A stretch of 36,828 bases of DNA from an archaeon (lineage in GTDB: Archaea > Asgardarchaeota > Thorarchaeia > Thorarchaeales > Thorarchaeaceae): contig JAJRWI010000049.1 of assembly GCA_024276825.1 (NCBI GenBank), positions 1 to 36,828 of the forward strand, given 5' to 3'. A program made the position numbers and the translations under genes. The stretch's first letter is position 1, and each line of letters begins with the position of its first letter. Of the stretch, positions 1 through 1,332 are shown one piece after another. The notes beneath the pieces were generated by a model. The model searched no databases and was not told the origin of the DNA. It saw nothing but the letters and a program-made list of their open reading frames with translations.

Positions 1-287
1 ATCATCTTCCCTGTATTCTCGTATTTTTCAATTGACCAGCCATGGCGGCTCATGTCATTTCGAATCACACGAGGAGAAACATCTGTGGTGATAAAGACTC
101 CCGGAAAGCCGTGCATGAGCCCCTCCATTATATATGCCTCGGCATAGGTGGTCTTTCCAGATCCTATGGGTCCCAATAGGATACTGGAGATCTGGGTCAC
201 CTGTCCAAATTCGACCAGATCACTTATCATGGGAGTTGCAATAGCGGGAATATGTGTCTTTGGCGTACCTTGGTTATACTCTGACAA
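1..287 (-). CDS. KaiC/RecA-superfamily ATPase-like protein, N-terminal part (runs off the window; not in the ORF track)
   Basis: Manual translation from TTG at 287, preceded by GAGGGG: LSEYNQGTPKTHIPAIATPMISDLVEFGQVTQISSILLGPIGSGKTTYAEAYIMEGLMHGFPGVFITTDVSPRVIRNDMSRHGWSIEKYENTGKM. Walker A is GPIGSGKT; TTDVSP sits where KaiC has the catalytic EE. It starts about 10 nt after the upstream KaiC-like gene. Confidence 0.8.
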   Translation of the reverse strand, partial: MSEYNQGTPKTHIPAIATPMISDLVEFGQVTQISSILLGPIGSGKTTYAEAYIMEGLMHGFPGVFITTDVSPRVIRNDMSRHGWSIEKYENTGKM

Positions 288-296
288 TTCCACCCC

Positions 297-1049
297 TCAC
301 ACTGAACCGATCTCGCCTGGAAATACTCTAATACCATCATCAGTAATTCGCATTGAATGAATTCTGGAACTGTGCTTGGACCCTCTGAGCTTTAGCACCT
401 CAATAGAGCGTGAGCGTGAGGTTGGCCCAATCTTCTCGTTGTATAGCACGATTACGCCTGATGCGAGGAATGCCTCAATGTCAAACACTCCAAGCCCGTT
501 CTGATGTTCGGGTATCTCGCTTGTCAACAGGAGAGTCCTCCCACCCTGTGTTAGATGTGCTGTTAATTTAAAGAACTCTTCTCTTAGAATGTCTCGGCTT
601 CTGAATTTGTATGCAAGGATTGATAATGTGTCTATGACTATGCGCTGGGCATTGATGCGATCTGCATGACTTGCTATTATCGCTTTTAGGCCAGACAGAT
701 CAAAGCTGGGGTACTCTCCAATCGAAACTGGTGTGACCTCTTTAGATGGCGAGAGGTCAATTATTGCAAGAAGGCCCTCTTTCTCAAGTGCTTCAAGATC
801 CATTCCGAAACACATCATGTTTCGTTTTATCAAATGCGGCGGTTCTTCCAGTGTGACCAGTATGCCAGGTTCATTGTATTTGACTGCCCCATTATAGAGG
901 AACTGTATTGCCAAAATGCTCTTTCCAGTACCAGCTTTTCCCGCAATCAGAATTGTATCGCCCTTGGGAAAACCCCCCTCAATCAACTCGTCTAGGCCTG
1001 GAATGCCTGTCTTCACCCGTGGTATTGTATACTCGCTCATATCATTCAC
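297..1049 (-). CDS. kaiC: Single-domain KaiC-family ATPase (CI-like)
   Basis: KTGIPGLDELIEGG N-terminus, Walker A GKAGTGKS, catalytic VTLEEP, Walker B IVIDT, and RSIEVLKLRGSKHS...ITDDGIRVFP C-terminal motif. Confidence 0.92.
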   Translation of the reverse strand: MNDMSEYTIPRVKTGIPGLDELIEGGFPKGDTILIAGKAGTGKSILAIQFLYNGAVKYNEPGILVTLEEPPHLIKRNMMCFGMDLEALEKEGLLAIIDLSPSKEVTPVSIGEYPSFDLSGLKAIIASHADRINAQRIVIDTLSILAYKFRSRDILREEFFKLTAHLTQGGRTLLLTSEIPEHQNGLGVFDIEAFLASGVIVLYNEKIGPTSRSRSIEVLKLRGSKHSSRIHSMRITDDGIRVFPGEIGSV

Positions 1050-1050
1050 C

Positions 1051-1332
1051 TCATTTTTTCGACAACCTTGCCCCCATTATCATCCTGATGAGAATTTCTG
1101 GTTCAGGAATGCCGGTAACACTCATGCCATTGATCATTATAGTTGGTAGTGCGAATATTCCAAATTCTTCAGCTGCTGAAGGATCTTCGGACACATTGAT
1201 GATTATAAGGTTAAAGATACCATCCTCAAAGTCATTGAGCGTTTCTTTGAGAATCTCTTCAGCCCGGGGACAGAAGGCGCACGTATCAGACTTGAAGAAG
1301 TATATCTTGATTCTAGAGTCTTCCTCAGTCAT
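1051..1332 (-). CDS. Thioredoxin-fold protein with CxxC, KaiB-like
   Basis: CAFC motif and cis-Pro motif ALPT; the segment RAEEILKETLNDFEDGIFNLIIINVSEDPSAAEEFGIFALPT follows the KaiB pattern. The stop is 1 nt from the kaiC start. Confidence 0.8.
   Translation of the reverse strand: MTEEDSRIKIYFFKSDTCAFCPRAEEILKETLNDFEDGIFNLIIINVSEDPSAAEEFGIFALPTIMINGMSVTGIPEPEILIRMIMGARLSKK

What the first reader, a model, noticed from the sequence alone, without database searches (positions are those of the whole stretch)
1..1332. KaiB-like CxxC protein coupled to a CI-like KaiC with an intact B-loop: a possible redox-gated 'split clock' in an Asgard archaeon
Seen: a 93-aa thioredoxin-fold gene ends 1 nt before a single-domain KaiC, which ends about 10 nt before a second KaiC-like gene. 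Compared from memory, the small protein (RAEEILKETLNDFEDGIFNLIIINVSEDPSAAEEFGIFALPT) matches the cyanobacterial KaiB pattern (RAL..L..IL...F.G.Y.L.VIDV...P.LAEE.KILATPT). It has a CAFC dithiol where KaiB has TPNS. The KaiC resembles the CI domain: IIDLSPSKEVTPVSIGEYPSFDLSGL parallels the CI B-loop region (ILDASP...GFDLSAL), and IEAFLAS parallels VEEFVSD rather than the CII phospho-ST site. Established: fold-switched KaiB adopts a thioredoxin fold and binds the CI B-loop. Inference: this is a thioredoxin-state, redox-sensitive KaiB that regulates a KaiC hexamer, a plausible evolutionary intermediate between thioredoxin and KaiB. It may be a timer or redox/energy switch rather than a true 24-h clock, since no KaiA or CII phosphosites are visible.
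Basis: partly seen in the sequence, partly recalled or inferred. Interest (0 to 1): 0.88.

Follow-up and report, generated by a model that had tools for sequence, protein, structure and literature searches.

The report
Thioredoxin partner of Asgard KaiC ATPases
In this Thorarchaeota (Asgard archaeon) genome a small, probably redox-active thioredoxin (not a true KaiB) is always encoded just ahead of two KaiC-type ATPases, beside a Roadblock protein and a Rab-like GTPase. A model docks it on the KaiC loop where the clock protein KaiB binds, so this is a real but untested signalling module, not a clock.

Summary
On the minus strand lie a 93-aa CxxC thioredoxin-fold gene (1051-1332), a 247-aa single-domain KaiC (297-1040) and the start of a second KaiC paralogue (3-293, cut by the contig end).

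By sequence the small protein is an MJ0307-type thioredoxin: PDB 1FO5 at E 1.5e-22, with no KaiB among the best 60 PDB sequences. Its Pfam KaiB score (24.8 bits) is below the cut-off, and a tree does not place it beside true KaiB.

The gene order Roadblock, Trx, KaiC1, KaiC2 next to the 'Thor-Rab' GTPase is kept in all 30 Thorarchaeal genome loci and all 10 metagenome or assembly contigs examined. Trx-KaiC pairs recur in other Asgard lineages, with Rag-like or fused GTPases. Only 1 of 20 other KaiC-like genes has such a neighbour.

KaiC1 is CI-like, catalytically intact and keeps the B-loop. KaiC2 lacks the catalytic glutamates and is not CII-like. No KaiA was found.

A complex model puts the thioredoxin's active-site face on the B-loop (score 0.73, best control 0.00), but solved KaiB-CI complexes may have prompted this.

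A KaiC plus 'KaiB-like thioredoxin-family' link was noted by Makarova et al. 2016. This scan has reported the module before on other Thorarchaeal DNA. No experiment exists.

The parts
1051..1332 (-). 93-aa MJ0307-type thioredoxin (Trx partner) with CxxC and a cis-Pro loop
   Evidence: Pfam Thioredoxin_3 scores 28.7 bits, over its cut-off. TIGR00411 scores 58.5 bits. The family profile hits 1FO5 at 1.5e-22. The AF2 model has pLDDT 91.7 and a thioredoxin fold.
1270..1281 (-). C-A-F-C active-site motif (residues 18-21)
   Evidence: C18 and C21 are invariant in 39 distinct orthologues and in alignment A1. P63 (the cis-Pro in 'PT') is also invariant.
297..1040 (-). KaiC1: 247-aa single-domain, CI-like KaiC ATPase. 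An alternative GTG start lies at 1049.
   Evidence: Pfam KaiC scores 235.8 bits. The Synechococcus KaiC CI half scores 159.8 bits against 71.9 for CII. Walker A, the E-E pair, Walker B and the LKLRG arginine are all present.
669..761 (-). B-loop region of KaiC1 (residues 94-124), the predicted docking site of the thioredoxin
   Evidence: It aligns to the CI B-loop. F113, L115 and L118 are invariant even in 40%-identical non-Thor orthologues. It holds nearly all the KaiC1 residues of the predicted interface: 94-96, 100, 102-118, 120-121 and 123-124, leaving only residue 146 outside.
3..293 (-). KaiC2: N-terminal 97 aa of a second KaiC paralogue, cut by the contig end
   Evidence: Pfam KaiC scores 50.7 bits. 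Walker A (GPIGSGKT) is kept, but T-T-D stands where the catalytic E-E would be. This change is invariant in 33 full-length orthologues of about 235 aa that also hit DUF7504.
1445..1831 (-). Roadblock/LC7 protein, first gene of the co-directional row. The ORF is open to 1864; the likely ATG is at 1831.
   Evidence: Pfam Robl_LC7 scores 31.4 bits. It sits at the same position in the related loci examined: 41 Roadblock ORFs were found across the 44 compared. One Cys (residue 89 of the 139-aa ORF) is conserved at 97%.
1979..2515 (+). Rab-like small GTPase, counterpart of the crystallised 'Thorarchaeota Rab', divergent from the Roadblock gene
   Evidence: PDB 7EZB scores 284.6 bits, E 2.5e-84. It is kept next to the row in the related loci, and is co-directional in L015.
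2520..4298 (-). Conserved neighbours: a WD40 propeller (2520-3659) and a second Rab-like GTPase (3729-4298)
   Evidence: Pfam hits. The same neighbours occur in L008-L014. Whether they belong to the module is not shown.

Best explanation
The 93-aa gene encodes a genuine thioredoxin of the minimal archaeal MJ0307 type. It is probably redox-active and is not a member of the KaiB family. It has become the dedicated partner of a KaiC-type ATPase module.

The module consists of:
- the thioredoxin, which lies within -20 to +10 nt of KaiC1, consistent with translational coupling;
- KaiC1, a CI-like ATPase that keeps all its catalytic motifs and the B-loop;
- KaiC2, which still has a P-loop but has lost the catalytic glutamates, so it probably binds but hardly hydrolyses ATP;
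- in complete orthologous loci, a helical protein of about 760 aa with no Pfam family.

The row is headed by a Roadblock protein and sits beside the Thor-Rab GTPase.

Proposed mechanism, by analogy with fold-switched KaiB and the SasA N-domain on cyanobacterial KaiC-CI: the thioredoxin docks with its active-site face (CxxC, cis-Pro loop, beta3-beta4) on the KaiC1 B-loop. Complex formation would then depend jointly on the nucleotide state of KaiC1 and on the dithiol/disulfide state of the thioredoxin. The signal would pass to the Roadblock/Rab-like GTPase switch. This would be a redox/energy input to a GTPase switch, not a 24-h oscillator.

What is shown: gene identities, motifs and the conserved linkage. 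What is predicted only: docking at the B-loop. What is inferred: redox gating and output to the GTPase.

My odds for each step: thioredoxin identity 0.9; functional partnership with KaiC1 0.75; B-loop docking 0.45; redox gating 0.35; output through Roadblock/GTPase 0.4.
For: Identity
- Thioredoxin_3 is over its cut-off. TIGR00411 is the best hit.
- The family profile hits 1FO5 at 1.5e-22 and 1NHO at 9e-17.
- CxxC, the cis-Pro and G-x-P are invariant.
[quoted passage not shown] The top 50 Foldseek hits are all thioredoxins.

Linkage
- Strong orthologues (E <= 1e-34) were found in most of the 76 sampled genomes of the family and in one of the sister family, and nowhere else in 301 Asgard genomes.
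- All 30 fetched genome loci carry both Trx and KaiC1, and nearly all also carry Roadblock, KaiC2 and the Rab-like gene within the stretch fetched.
- The 10 metagenome or assembly contigs examined, with Trx identity down to 44%, keep the same gene order as far as each contig reaches.
- Trx-KaiC1 gaps range from -20 to +10 nt.

Specificity
- Only 1 of 20 other Asgard KaiC1-like genes has a Trx-fold gene upstream.
- Thorarchaeal Trx paralogues are not next to KaiC.

Recurrence in other lineages
- Atabeyarchaeia: an NPR2-like longin lead, Trx, KaiC, and a Gtr1/RagA-like GTPase.
- G025: Trx, KaiC1, KaiC2.
- Family f19: a Cys-less Trx/KaiB-like gene, KaiC1, an inactivated-KaiC domain fused to an Arf/Ras-like GTPase, then Roadblock. 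This fusion links KaiC paralogues to small GTPases.

KaiC1 and KaiC2
- KaiC1 scores 159.8 bits on CI against 71.9 on CII, with the B-loop aligned and motifs intact.
- KaiC2 has T-T-D in place of E-E in all 33 orthologues.

Docking
- Complex prediction gave 0.73 (runs 0.73, 0.76, 0.73) with a best control of 0.00.
- That mark was reached by 58 of 80 solved complexes and 2 of 110 mismatched pairs. These counts hold only roughly here because my own alignments were used.
- The runs agree in at least 100% of their contacts, and the partner's pLDDT is at least 87.
- The interface is KaiC1 residues 94-124 with Trx residues 13-20, 47-64 and 69-77.

Fold
- The model matches fold-switched KaiB as well as it matches thioredoxins: 5JWR_D has Z 12.8, rmsd 2.0 and 82 aligned residues, while thioredoxins score Z 11.5-13.2.

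Prior note
- Makarova et al. [quoted passage not shown]
Against: - The docking model may be recalled from solved KaiB-CI and SasA-CI complexes (5JWO, 5JWR, 6X61). KaiC1 is close to CI.
- KaiC1 and KaiC2 have no conserved cysteine, so there is no visible disulfide substrate in the ATPases.
- The f19 partner, and one of the two G025 partners, lack CxxC. The pairing therefore does not need redox chemistry, and redox gating may be a lineage add-on or may be wrong.
- There is no expression or protein evidence: no sequencing run was listed.
- KaiC2 and the 760-aa protein are missing from this window because the contig ends, so their description rests on orthologues.
Confidence: 0.55

Rival explanations
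1. The thioredoxin works as an ordinary enzyme on a client other than KaiC. It would reduce a disulfide or mixed disulfide in another member of the module, such as the Roadblock protein or the 760-aa protein. KaiC is merely co-expressed, or recruits it.
For: - CxxC and the cis-Pro are invariant, so catalytic chemistry is under selection.
- The Roadblock protein carries one cysteine conserved at 97%, in a predicted beta-strand. In Roadblock dimers this strand may lie at the dimer interface (my own knowledge, not tested).
- KaiC1 and KaiC2 lack conserved cysteines.
Against: - The tightest coupling is Trx to KaiC1, with overlapping or abutting codons.
- The Trx-KaiC pair persists in lineages where Roadblock is absent from the row (L048, L050, L068).
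- The complex model favours KaiC1 as the partner.
- The Cys-less partners in f19 and G025 cannot be reductases.
Confidence: 0.2
2. One reading: the protein is a KaiB homologue frozen in the thioredoxin state and an evolutionary intermediate between thioredoxin and KaiB. Together with a split KaiC it would form a timer.
For: - KaiC-linked Trx-fold proteins hit the KaiB model more often than unlinked ones: 9 of the 10 scanned, plus the window's own protein at 24.8 bits and P0144 and P0154, giving 16.9-31.2 bits; against 2 of 8 unlinked ones at 20.4 bits or less.
- Some CxxC forms pass the KaiB cut-off: f5 at 31.2 bits and f16 at 34.9 bits.
- A Cys-less KaiC-linked form is 41% identical over 58 residues to a true Asgard KaiB.
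- The structural match to fold-switched KaiB is Z 12.8.
Against: - This family is below every KaiB cut-off (24.8 against 27; TIGR02654 20.5 against 145.3).
- No KaiB is among the best 60 PDB sequences.
- In the tree, KaiB (100/100 support, branch length 4.98) attaches beside the f16 family, not beside the Thorarchaeal family.
- KaiC2 is not CII-like and carries no phosphosite pair.
- No KaiA was found in a genome that is 98.3% complete.
- True kaiB with double-domain kaiC in Asgards has a bacterial-type context with REC and histidine kinase genes.
Confidence: 0.1
3. A housekeeping thioredoxin that lies next to KaiC genes through inherited gene order, with no functional link.
For: Within one family of genomes, synteny can persist by descent alone. 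The whole neighbourhood (WD40, second GTPase, EF-2-like gene) is also conserved.
Against: - The pairing recurs at 30-48% Trx identity and 40% KaiC identity in other Asgard classes, with otherwise different neighbours.
- Codons overlap.
- The genome has other thioredoxin-fold genes elsewhere.
- Only 1 of 20 other KaiC-like genes has such a neighbour.
Confidence: 0.05

Closest known systems
Fold-switched KaiB, and the SasA N-terminal thioredoxin-like domain, bound to the B-loop of cyanobacterial KaiC-CI (PDB 5JWO, 5JWR, 6X61)
   Same: [quoted passage not shown]
- Its model superposes on fold-switched KaiB at Z 12.6-12.8.
- KaiC1 is CI-like with an aligned B-loop.
- The predicted interface is the B-loop.
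   Different: - It is not a KaiB family member by sequence.
- It carries an invariant CxxC and cis-Pro, which KaiB and SasA lack.
- Its partner is a single-domain KaiC plus a degenerate paralogue, not a CI-CII fusion.
- There is no KaiA, no CII phosphosites, and no evidence of fold switching.
MJ0307 / Mt0807 minimal archaeal thioredoxins (PDB 1FO5, 1NHO; NCBIfam TIGR00411)
   Same: - These are the best sequence matches (E 1.5e-22 and 9e-17 with the family profile).
- They share the minimal fold without the N-terminal extension, the C-x-x-C-P motif, the cis-Pro, and the G-x-P after beta4.
   Different: - The score is below the equivalog cut-off (58.5 against 92.75).
- It forms its own Thorarchaeal orthologue group with an acidic N-terminal tail in most members.
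- It is fixed in a KaiC operon. No such link is known to me for MJ0307 itself (not tested).
[quoted passage not shown]
   Same: It has the same kind of gene pair, a single-domain KaiC-like ATPase with a small thioredoxin-family protein, and inactivated KaiC paralogues belong to such networks.
   Different: In the text I could read, that work gives one sentence and no detail on CxxC, the B-loop, Asgard genomes or GTPase/Roadblock linkage. I could not read the 2017 paper, so the overlap may be larger.
MglA/MglB and Rag/Ragulator-type switches (small GTPase with a Roadblock or longin regulator); Thor-Rab (PDB 7EZB; Tran et al. 2024, PMC10933270)
   Same: A Roadblock gene heads the row, next to the counterpart of the crystallised Thor-Rab. 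Atabeyarchaeia have a longin-like gene and a Rag-like GTPase around the same Trx-KaiC pair.
   Different: No known GTPase-Roadblock system includes KaiC ATPases or a thioredoxin. Tran et al. do not mention these neighbours.

Membership tests
KaiB (Pfam PF07689; NCBIfam TIGR02654) | Score over the curated family cut-off | tested here: not met
   PF07689 scores 24.8 bits against a cut-off of 27, over residues 23-65 only. TIGR02654 scores 20.5 against 145.3.
KaiB (Pfam PF07689; NCBIfam TIGR02654) | Groups with KaiB rather than with thioredoxins in sequence comparison | tested here: not met
   No KaiB is among the best 60 PDB sequences for the protein or its profile. In the tree the KaiB clade attaches beside another family (only 3 KaiB sequences, long branch).
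KaiB (Pfam PF07689; NCBIfam TIGR02654) | Encoded with a double-domain (CI-CII) KaiC | tested here: not met
   Both neighbours are single-domain proteins of 247 and about 235 aa. Schmelling et al. 2017 found KaiB only together with full-length KaiC.
KaiB (Pfam PF07689; NCBIfam TIGR02654) | Binds the CI B-loop in a thioredoxin-like fold | tested here: inconclusive
   The complex model scores 0.73 with a best control of 0.00 and puts the interface on KaiC1 94-124. This may be recalled from solved KaiB-CI complexes, and it is not a measurement.
KaiB (Pfam PF07689; NCBIfam TIGR02654) | Metamorphic: has a second, ground-state fold | not testable with these tools
   AF2 gave only the thioredoxin fold at pLDDT 91.7. 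That does not exclude another state.
Thioredoxin superfamily, MJ0307 type (Pfam PF13192; NCBIfam TIGR00411) | Family model over the cut-off | tested here: met
   PF13192 scores 28.7 against 24.8, and Glutaredoxin PF00462 scores 24.5 against 22.9. The TIGR00411 equivalog model is the best hit but lies below its cut-off (58.5 against 92.75). It is therefore a member of the superfamily and type, not a proven equivalog.
Thioredoxin superfamily, MJ0307 type (Pfam PF13192; NCBIfam TIGR00411) | CxxC active site and cis-proline loop | tested here: met
   C18, C21 and P63 are invariant in the family.
Thioredoxin superfamily, MJ0307 type (Pfam PF13192; NCBIfam TIGR00411) | Thioredoxin fold | tested here: met
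   The AF2 model has pLDDT 91.7. The Foldseek top 50 are all thioredoxins. VIA-align gives Z up to 13.2.
Thioredoxin superfamily, MJ0307 type (Pfam PF13192; NCBIfam TIGR00411) | Disulfide oxidoreductase activity | not testable with these tools
   Needs an insulin or DTNB reduction assay and a redox potential measurement.
KaiC family ATPase (Pfam PF06745), for KaiC1 | Family model, Walker A and B, catalytic Glu pair, arginine finger | tested here: met
   PF06745 scores 235.8 bits. GKAGTGKS, VTLEE, VIDTL and LKLRG align to the CI motifs.
Cyanobacterial KaiABC oscillator | CI-CII fusion with the S431/T432 phosphosites | tested here: not met
   KaiC1 matches CI (159.8 against 71.9 bits). KaiC2 also aligns to the CI half and is closest to PH0284.
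Cyanobacterial KaiABC oscillator | KaiA present | tested here: not met
   PF07688 has no match in the genome, which is 98.3% complete. The control found it in S. elongatus.

The most novel reading that the evidence does not exclude
KaiC-linked thioredoxin-fold partners in Asgard archaea, with CxxC in Thorarchaeota and Atabeyarchaeia and without it in family f19, would be the ancestral kind of protein from which KaiB arose. Docking of a thioredoxin's substrate groove onto the KaiC B-loop would be the original interaction. The module would feed cellular redox and ATP state into Rab/Rag-like GTPase switches through Roadblock or longin regulators. That would make it a prokaryotic forerunner of Rag/Ragulator-style metabolic sensing.
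Probability: 0.15. Interest if true: 0.85.

Novelty: new variant of a known kind. Interest (0 to 1): 0.58.

Why it matters
Archaeal KaiC-like ATPases have been proposed as major signalling hubs, but almost none has a known partner or input. This module has four features that make it tractable.

- It offers a defined, strictly conserved pair: a small soluble thioredoxin and a CI-like KaiC.
- It comes with a concrete, falsifiable docking prediction at the B-loop and an obvious chemical handle (CxxC).
- It is physically tied to the best-characterised Asgard small GTPase (Thor-Rab) and its likely Roadblock regulator.
- In another lineage an inactivated KaiC domain is fused to a GTPase.

If the prediction holds, it would give the first biochemical input (redox and ATP) to an Asgard GTPase switch. 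It would also show how a thioredoxin surface could have been recruited for KaiB-type binding. If binding fails, the finding remains a well-documented lineage-specific operon.

Tried and rejected
- Sequencing runs for window 1-2600: none was listed, so nothing can be said on expression.
- The search for related loci with the Atabeyarchaeial thioredoxin returned only its own genome.
- A search for more KaiB sequences with the Asgard KaiB gave only 2 proteins. The KaiB side of the tree therefore rests on 3 sequences and a long branch.
- The Makarova 2017 mBio paper could not be read by DOI or PMC id.
- The 760-aa downstream protein has no significant Pfam family: TPR_12 at E 0.028 in one orthologue and nothing in another. 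I do not call it a TPR protein on my own evidence.
- KaiB and SasA were not in Foldseek's top 50. They appear tied with thioredoxins under VIA-align, so fold cannot separate the two readings.
- Conserved-cysteine search: there is none in KaiC1 or KaiC2, so I rejected 'KaiC is the disulfide substrate'.
- 'Split CI+CII KaiC' is rejected.
- My first control set for KaiB cross-hits turned out to include two KaiC-linked proteins (P0144 and P0154). I recounted without them.
- The apparent in-frame TAG in f19 KaiC1-like genes is only the terminal stop at the end of the match.
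Full report
**What is in the sequence.** The window begins at base 1 of contig C41 of a 2.9-Mb genome that is 98.3% complete. 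Four genes run on the minus strand:
- a Roadblock/LC7 gene (1445-1831; the ORF is open to 1864);
- a 93-aa thioredoxin-fold gene (1051-1332);
- a single-domain KaiC (KaiC1, 297-1040);
- the first 97 codons of a second KaiC paralogue (KaiC2, 3-293), cut by the contig end.

The thioredoxin stop is at 1053-1051. However, orthologues of 247-248 aa start at the ATG at 1040, 10 nt later and behind a GGTGA. KaiC2 starts 3 nt after the KaiC1 stop.

A Rab-like GTPase is transcribed divergently from the Roadblock gene (1979-2515). It is the counterpart of the crystallised 'Thorarchaeota Rab' (7EZB, 284.6 bits). A WD40 propeller and a second Rab-like GTPase follow. Named homologues are almost all 'Candidatus Thorarchaeota'. 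These are the only two KaiC-like genes in the genome, and no KaiA was found.

**What the small protein is.**
- Pfam puts Thioredoxin_3 (28.7 bits) and Glutaredoxin over their cut-offs, and KaiB just under its own (24.8 against 27, residues 23-65 only).
- The best NCBIfam hit by far is the MJ0307-family thioredoxin TIGR00411 (58.5 bits, below its equivalog cut-off). KaiB models score about 20 bits against cut-offs over 100.
- A profile of 20 family members hits PDB 1FO5 (MJ0307 thioredoxin) at 1.5e-22, archaeal protein disulfide oxidoreductases at about 1e-18, and 1NHO at 9e-17. No KaiB is among the best 60 sequences. The single sequence gives the same result.
- C18, C21 (C-x-F-C-P), the cis-proline P63 and G74/P76 are invariant. 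C18 and C21 stand at 100% in 39 distinct orthologues.
- AlphaFold2 gives a confident minimal thioredoxin fold (pLDDT 91.7), and Foldseek's top 50 are all thioredoxins.
- Under VIA-align, fold-switched KaiB scores Z 12.8 with rmsd 2.0 over 82 residues (5JWR_D) and Z 12.6 (5JWO_B). Legionella KaiB scores 11.6 and the SasA N-domain 11.5. Thioredoxins score Z 11.5-13.2, so these are tied. Fold therefore cannot separate the two readings.

**Is the KaiB resemblance special?** Only slightly.
- The KaiB model rings below its cut-off in control genomes that have no KaiB (T. thermophilus, L. lactis, M. jannaschii, M. acetivorans).
- Among small thioredoxins with no KaiC neighbour on record, 2 of 8 give KaiB hits of at most 20.4 bits. 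One of them (P0155) sits in a trehalose operon.
- KaiC-linked thioredoxin-fold proteins hit more often and a little higher: 16.9-31.2 bits, 9 of 10. The window's own protein and P0144/P0154 add to this.
- In a maximum-likelihood tree of 46 sequences, the three true KaiB sequences form a long-branched clade (100/100 support, length 4.98). It attaches beside a different Asgard CxxC family (f16), not beside the Thorarchaeal family. The Thorarchaeal family lies in the unresolved MJ0307-type radiation.

So this protein is not a KaiB family member, and it is not shown to be a specific intermediate.

**Is the linkage to KaiC real?** Yes, and this is the strongest result.
- Strong orthologues of the thioredoxin (E <= 1e-34) occur in most of the 76 sampled genomes of the window's family and in the one sampled genome of the sister family. 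They occur nowhere else among 301 Asgard genomes.
- All 30 fetched genome loci carry both Trx and KaiC1. Nearly all also carry Roadblock, KaiC2 and the Rab-like gene within the stretch fetched.
- The 10 metagenome or assembly contigs examined, with thioredoxin identity down to 44-48%, keep the order Roadblock, Trx, KaiC1 (247-249 aa), KaiC2 (229-249 aa, also DUF7504) as far as each contig reaches. Most add a protein of about 760 aa with no Pfam family.
- Trx-KaiC1 gaps run from a 20-nt overlap to 10 nt.
- The link is specific. A second thioredoxin paralogue in Thorarchaeota is not next to KaiC. Of 20 other Asgard KaiC1-like genes from many families, only one has a thioredoxin-fold gene upstream.

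**The pair recurs outside Thorarchaeota, with telling neighbours.**
- Two Atabeyarchaeia genomes (one is CP147779.1) carry a CxxC thioredoxin directly upstream of a KaiC1 that is 40% identical. A 152-aa gene precedes the pair. Its nearest Atlas clusters are NPR2/C9orf72/folliculin-type longin proteins (score 0.93, a lead only). A Gtr1/RagA-like GTPase follows the pair.
- Genome G025 has two thioredoxin-fold genes (one without CxxC), then KaiC1 and a DUF7504-type KaiC2.
- In family f5, a double-domain KaiC is followed by a CxxC thioredoxin that passes the KaiB cut-off (31.2 bits).
- In family f19, the one positive among the 20 controls, a cysteine-less KaiB/thioredoxin-like gene comes first (KaiB 23.9 bits, Thioredoxin_3 22.0 bits). 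It precedes a KaiC1-like gene, then a 387-aa fusion of an inactivated KaiC domain (66.8 bits, P-loop lost) with an Arf/Ras-like GTPase (51 bits), then a Roadblock gene (55 bits) and another KaiC.

The f19 fusion is independent evidence that KaiC paralogues and small GTPases work together. The cysteine-less partner shows that the pairing does not require redox chemistry. That protein is nearest to the Atabeyarchaeial CxxC partner (34% identity) and is 41% identical over 58 residues to a true Asgard KaiB.

True kaiB with a double-domain kaiC exists in two Asgard genomes, in a bacterial-type context with REC and histidine-kinase genes.

**The ATPases.**
- KaiC1 is strikingly CI-like. Against Synechococcus KaiC, the CI half scores 159.8 bits and the CII half 71.9. 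The B-loop stretch is aligned with three extra residues, and IEAFLAS stands where CI has VEEFVSD.
- Walker A, the E-E pair, Walker B and the arginine of LKLRG are all kept. F113, L115 and L118 of the B-loop are invariant even in the 40%-identical orthologues.
- The Pyrococcus single-domain protein PH0186 scores similarly (165.7 bits), so CI-likeness is a trait of this archaeal KaiC type.
- KaiC2 keeps the P-loop but has T-T-D for E-E in all 33 full-length orthologues. It is closest to PH0284 and aligns to the CI half of cyanobacterial KaiC, not to CII. It is therefore a degenerate paralogue, not the missing CII half.
- Neither ATPase has a conserved cysteine. The Roadblock protein has one, conserved at 97%.

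- The score was 0.73 (runs 0.73, 0.76, 0.73) against a best control of 0.00.
- That mark was reached by 58 of 80 solved complexes and 2 of 110 mismatched pairs. These counts hold only roughly, because my own alignments were used.
- The runs agree in at least 100% of their contacts, and the partner's pLDDT is at least 87.
- The interface joins KaiC1 residues 94-124 (the B-loop and the following helix) to thioredoxin residues 13-20 (including C18), 47-64 (alpha2 and the cis-Pro loop) and 69-77. This is the face a thioredoxin uses for substrates.
- Solved KaiB-CI and SasA-CI complexes exist and KaiC1 is close to CI, so this pass may be recalled likeness. It supports binding but does not show it.

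**Best reading.** This is a dedicated thioredoxin partner of a KaiC1/KaiC2 ATPase pair, in a module that also holds a Roadblock protein and a Rab-like GTPase. It most likely works like KaiB or SasA in where it binds. It differs in being a real CxxC thioredoxin, whose redox state could gate the complex. There is no KaiA, no CII domain, no phosphosite pair and no sign of an oscillator. The rival readings and my odds for them are given in their own sections.

**Novelty.** Makarova et al. [quoted passage not shown] Tran et al. 2024, who solved Thor-Rab, do not mention these neighbours. Schmelling et al. 2017 found KaiB only with full-length KaiC.

Earlier agents of this scan reported the same Thorarchaeal module on other genomes, and a related Jordarchaeales cluster. 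I repeated the main tests on this window and added four things:
- the specificity control (1 of 20);
- the KaiB cross-hit control;
- the tree;
- the Atabeyarchaeial longin/Rag context and the f19 fusion cluster.

I rate it a new variant of a known kind. It is solid as comparative genomics and untested as biochemistry.

Noticed in passing
L103 (G038:C1:2386400-2391200), 1606-4800: An Asgard family f19 cluster, in order: a cysteine-less KaiB/thioredoxin-like gene; a KaiC1-like gene; a 387-aa fusion of an inactivated KaiC domain with an Arf/Ras-like GTPase; a Roadblock gene; and another KaiC with an acidic repeat (P-E-K-E-A-E) before its ATPase domain.
   Followed up: partly
L050 (G012, Atabeyarchaeia CP147779.1), 3535-6714; also L049: Gene row: a 139-aa gene, a wHTH gene, a 152-aa NPR2/folliculin-like longin candidate, a CxxC thioredoxin, KaiC1, and a Gtr1/RagA-like GTPase. 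It resembles a GATOR/FLCN-Rag pair wrapped around a Trx-KaiC pair. The longin assignment rests on one Atlas look-up (0.93).
   Followed up: partly
L064-L067 (Asgard family f16): A CxxC thioredoxin family (C-L-F-C, then I-L-A-C-P-T-L) whose best Pfam hit is KaiB, over the cut-off (30-35 bits). It is the nearest neighbour of true KaiB in my tree. It is not within 1.5 kb of a KaiC. It lies beside the same 139-aa and wHTH genes that precede the Atabeyarchaeial cluster.
   Followed up: partly
L062, L063 (Asgard family f9, genus g52): A bona fide kaiB (82.6 and 60.7 bits, no CxxC) followed by a double-domain kaiC, with a REC gene and a histidine-kinase-like gene upstream in L062. This is a bacterial-type kaiBC set in two genomes; the KaiB of one is named as from Lokiarchaeota.
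   Followed up: no
L068, L057, L069 (family f5 and relatives): A double-domain KaiC is followed (not preceded) by a CxxC thioredoxin that passes the KaiB cut-off (31.2 bits), and then by an M28 peptidase.
   Followed up: no
L070 (G058:C40), 1426-2338: A thioredoxin-fold gene with a degenerate active site (S-S-C-C instead of CxxC) and a KaiB score of 31.6 bits lies directly upstream of a Ras-like GTPase, with no KaiC in the 3 kb fetched.
   Followed up: no
window 1445-1831 (-), residue 89 of the 139-aa ORF: The Roadblock protein has a single cysteine conserved in 97% of 36 orthologues, in a predicted beta-strand (V-R-C-S-L-G). It is a possible thiol target for the neighbouring thioredoxin. Its position in the dimer was not modelled.
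   Followed up: no
one search matches, e.g. G292:C25:57074-57337, G256:C215, own genome C67:24793-25029: MJ0307-like thioredoxin domains sit inside open frames of about 490-700 aa in several Asgard families (f27 in all 11 sampled genomes, f14, f26, f7) and in this genome. Their architecture was not examined.
   Followed up: no
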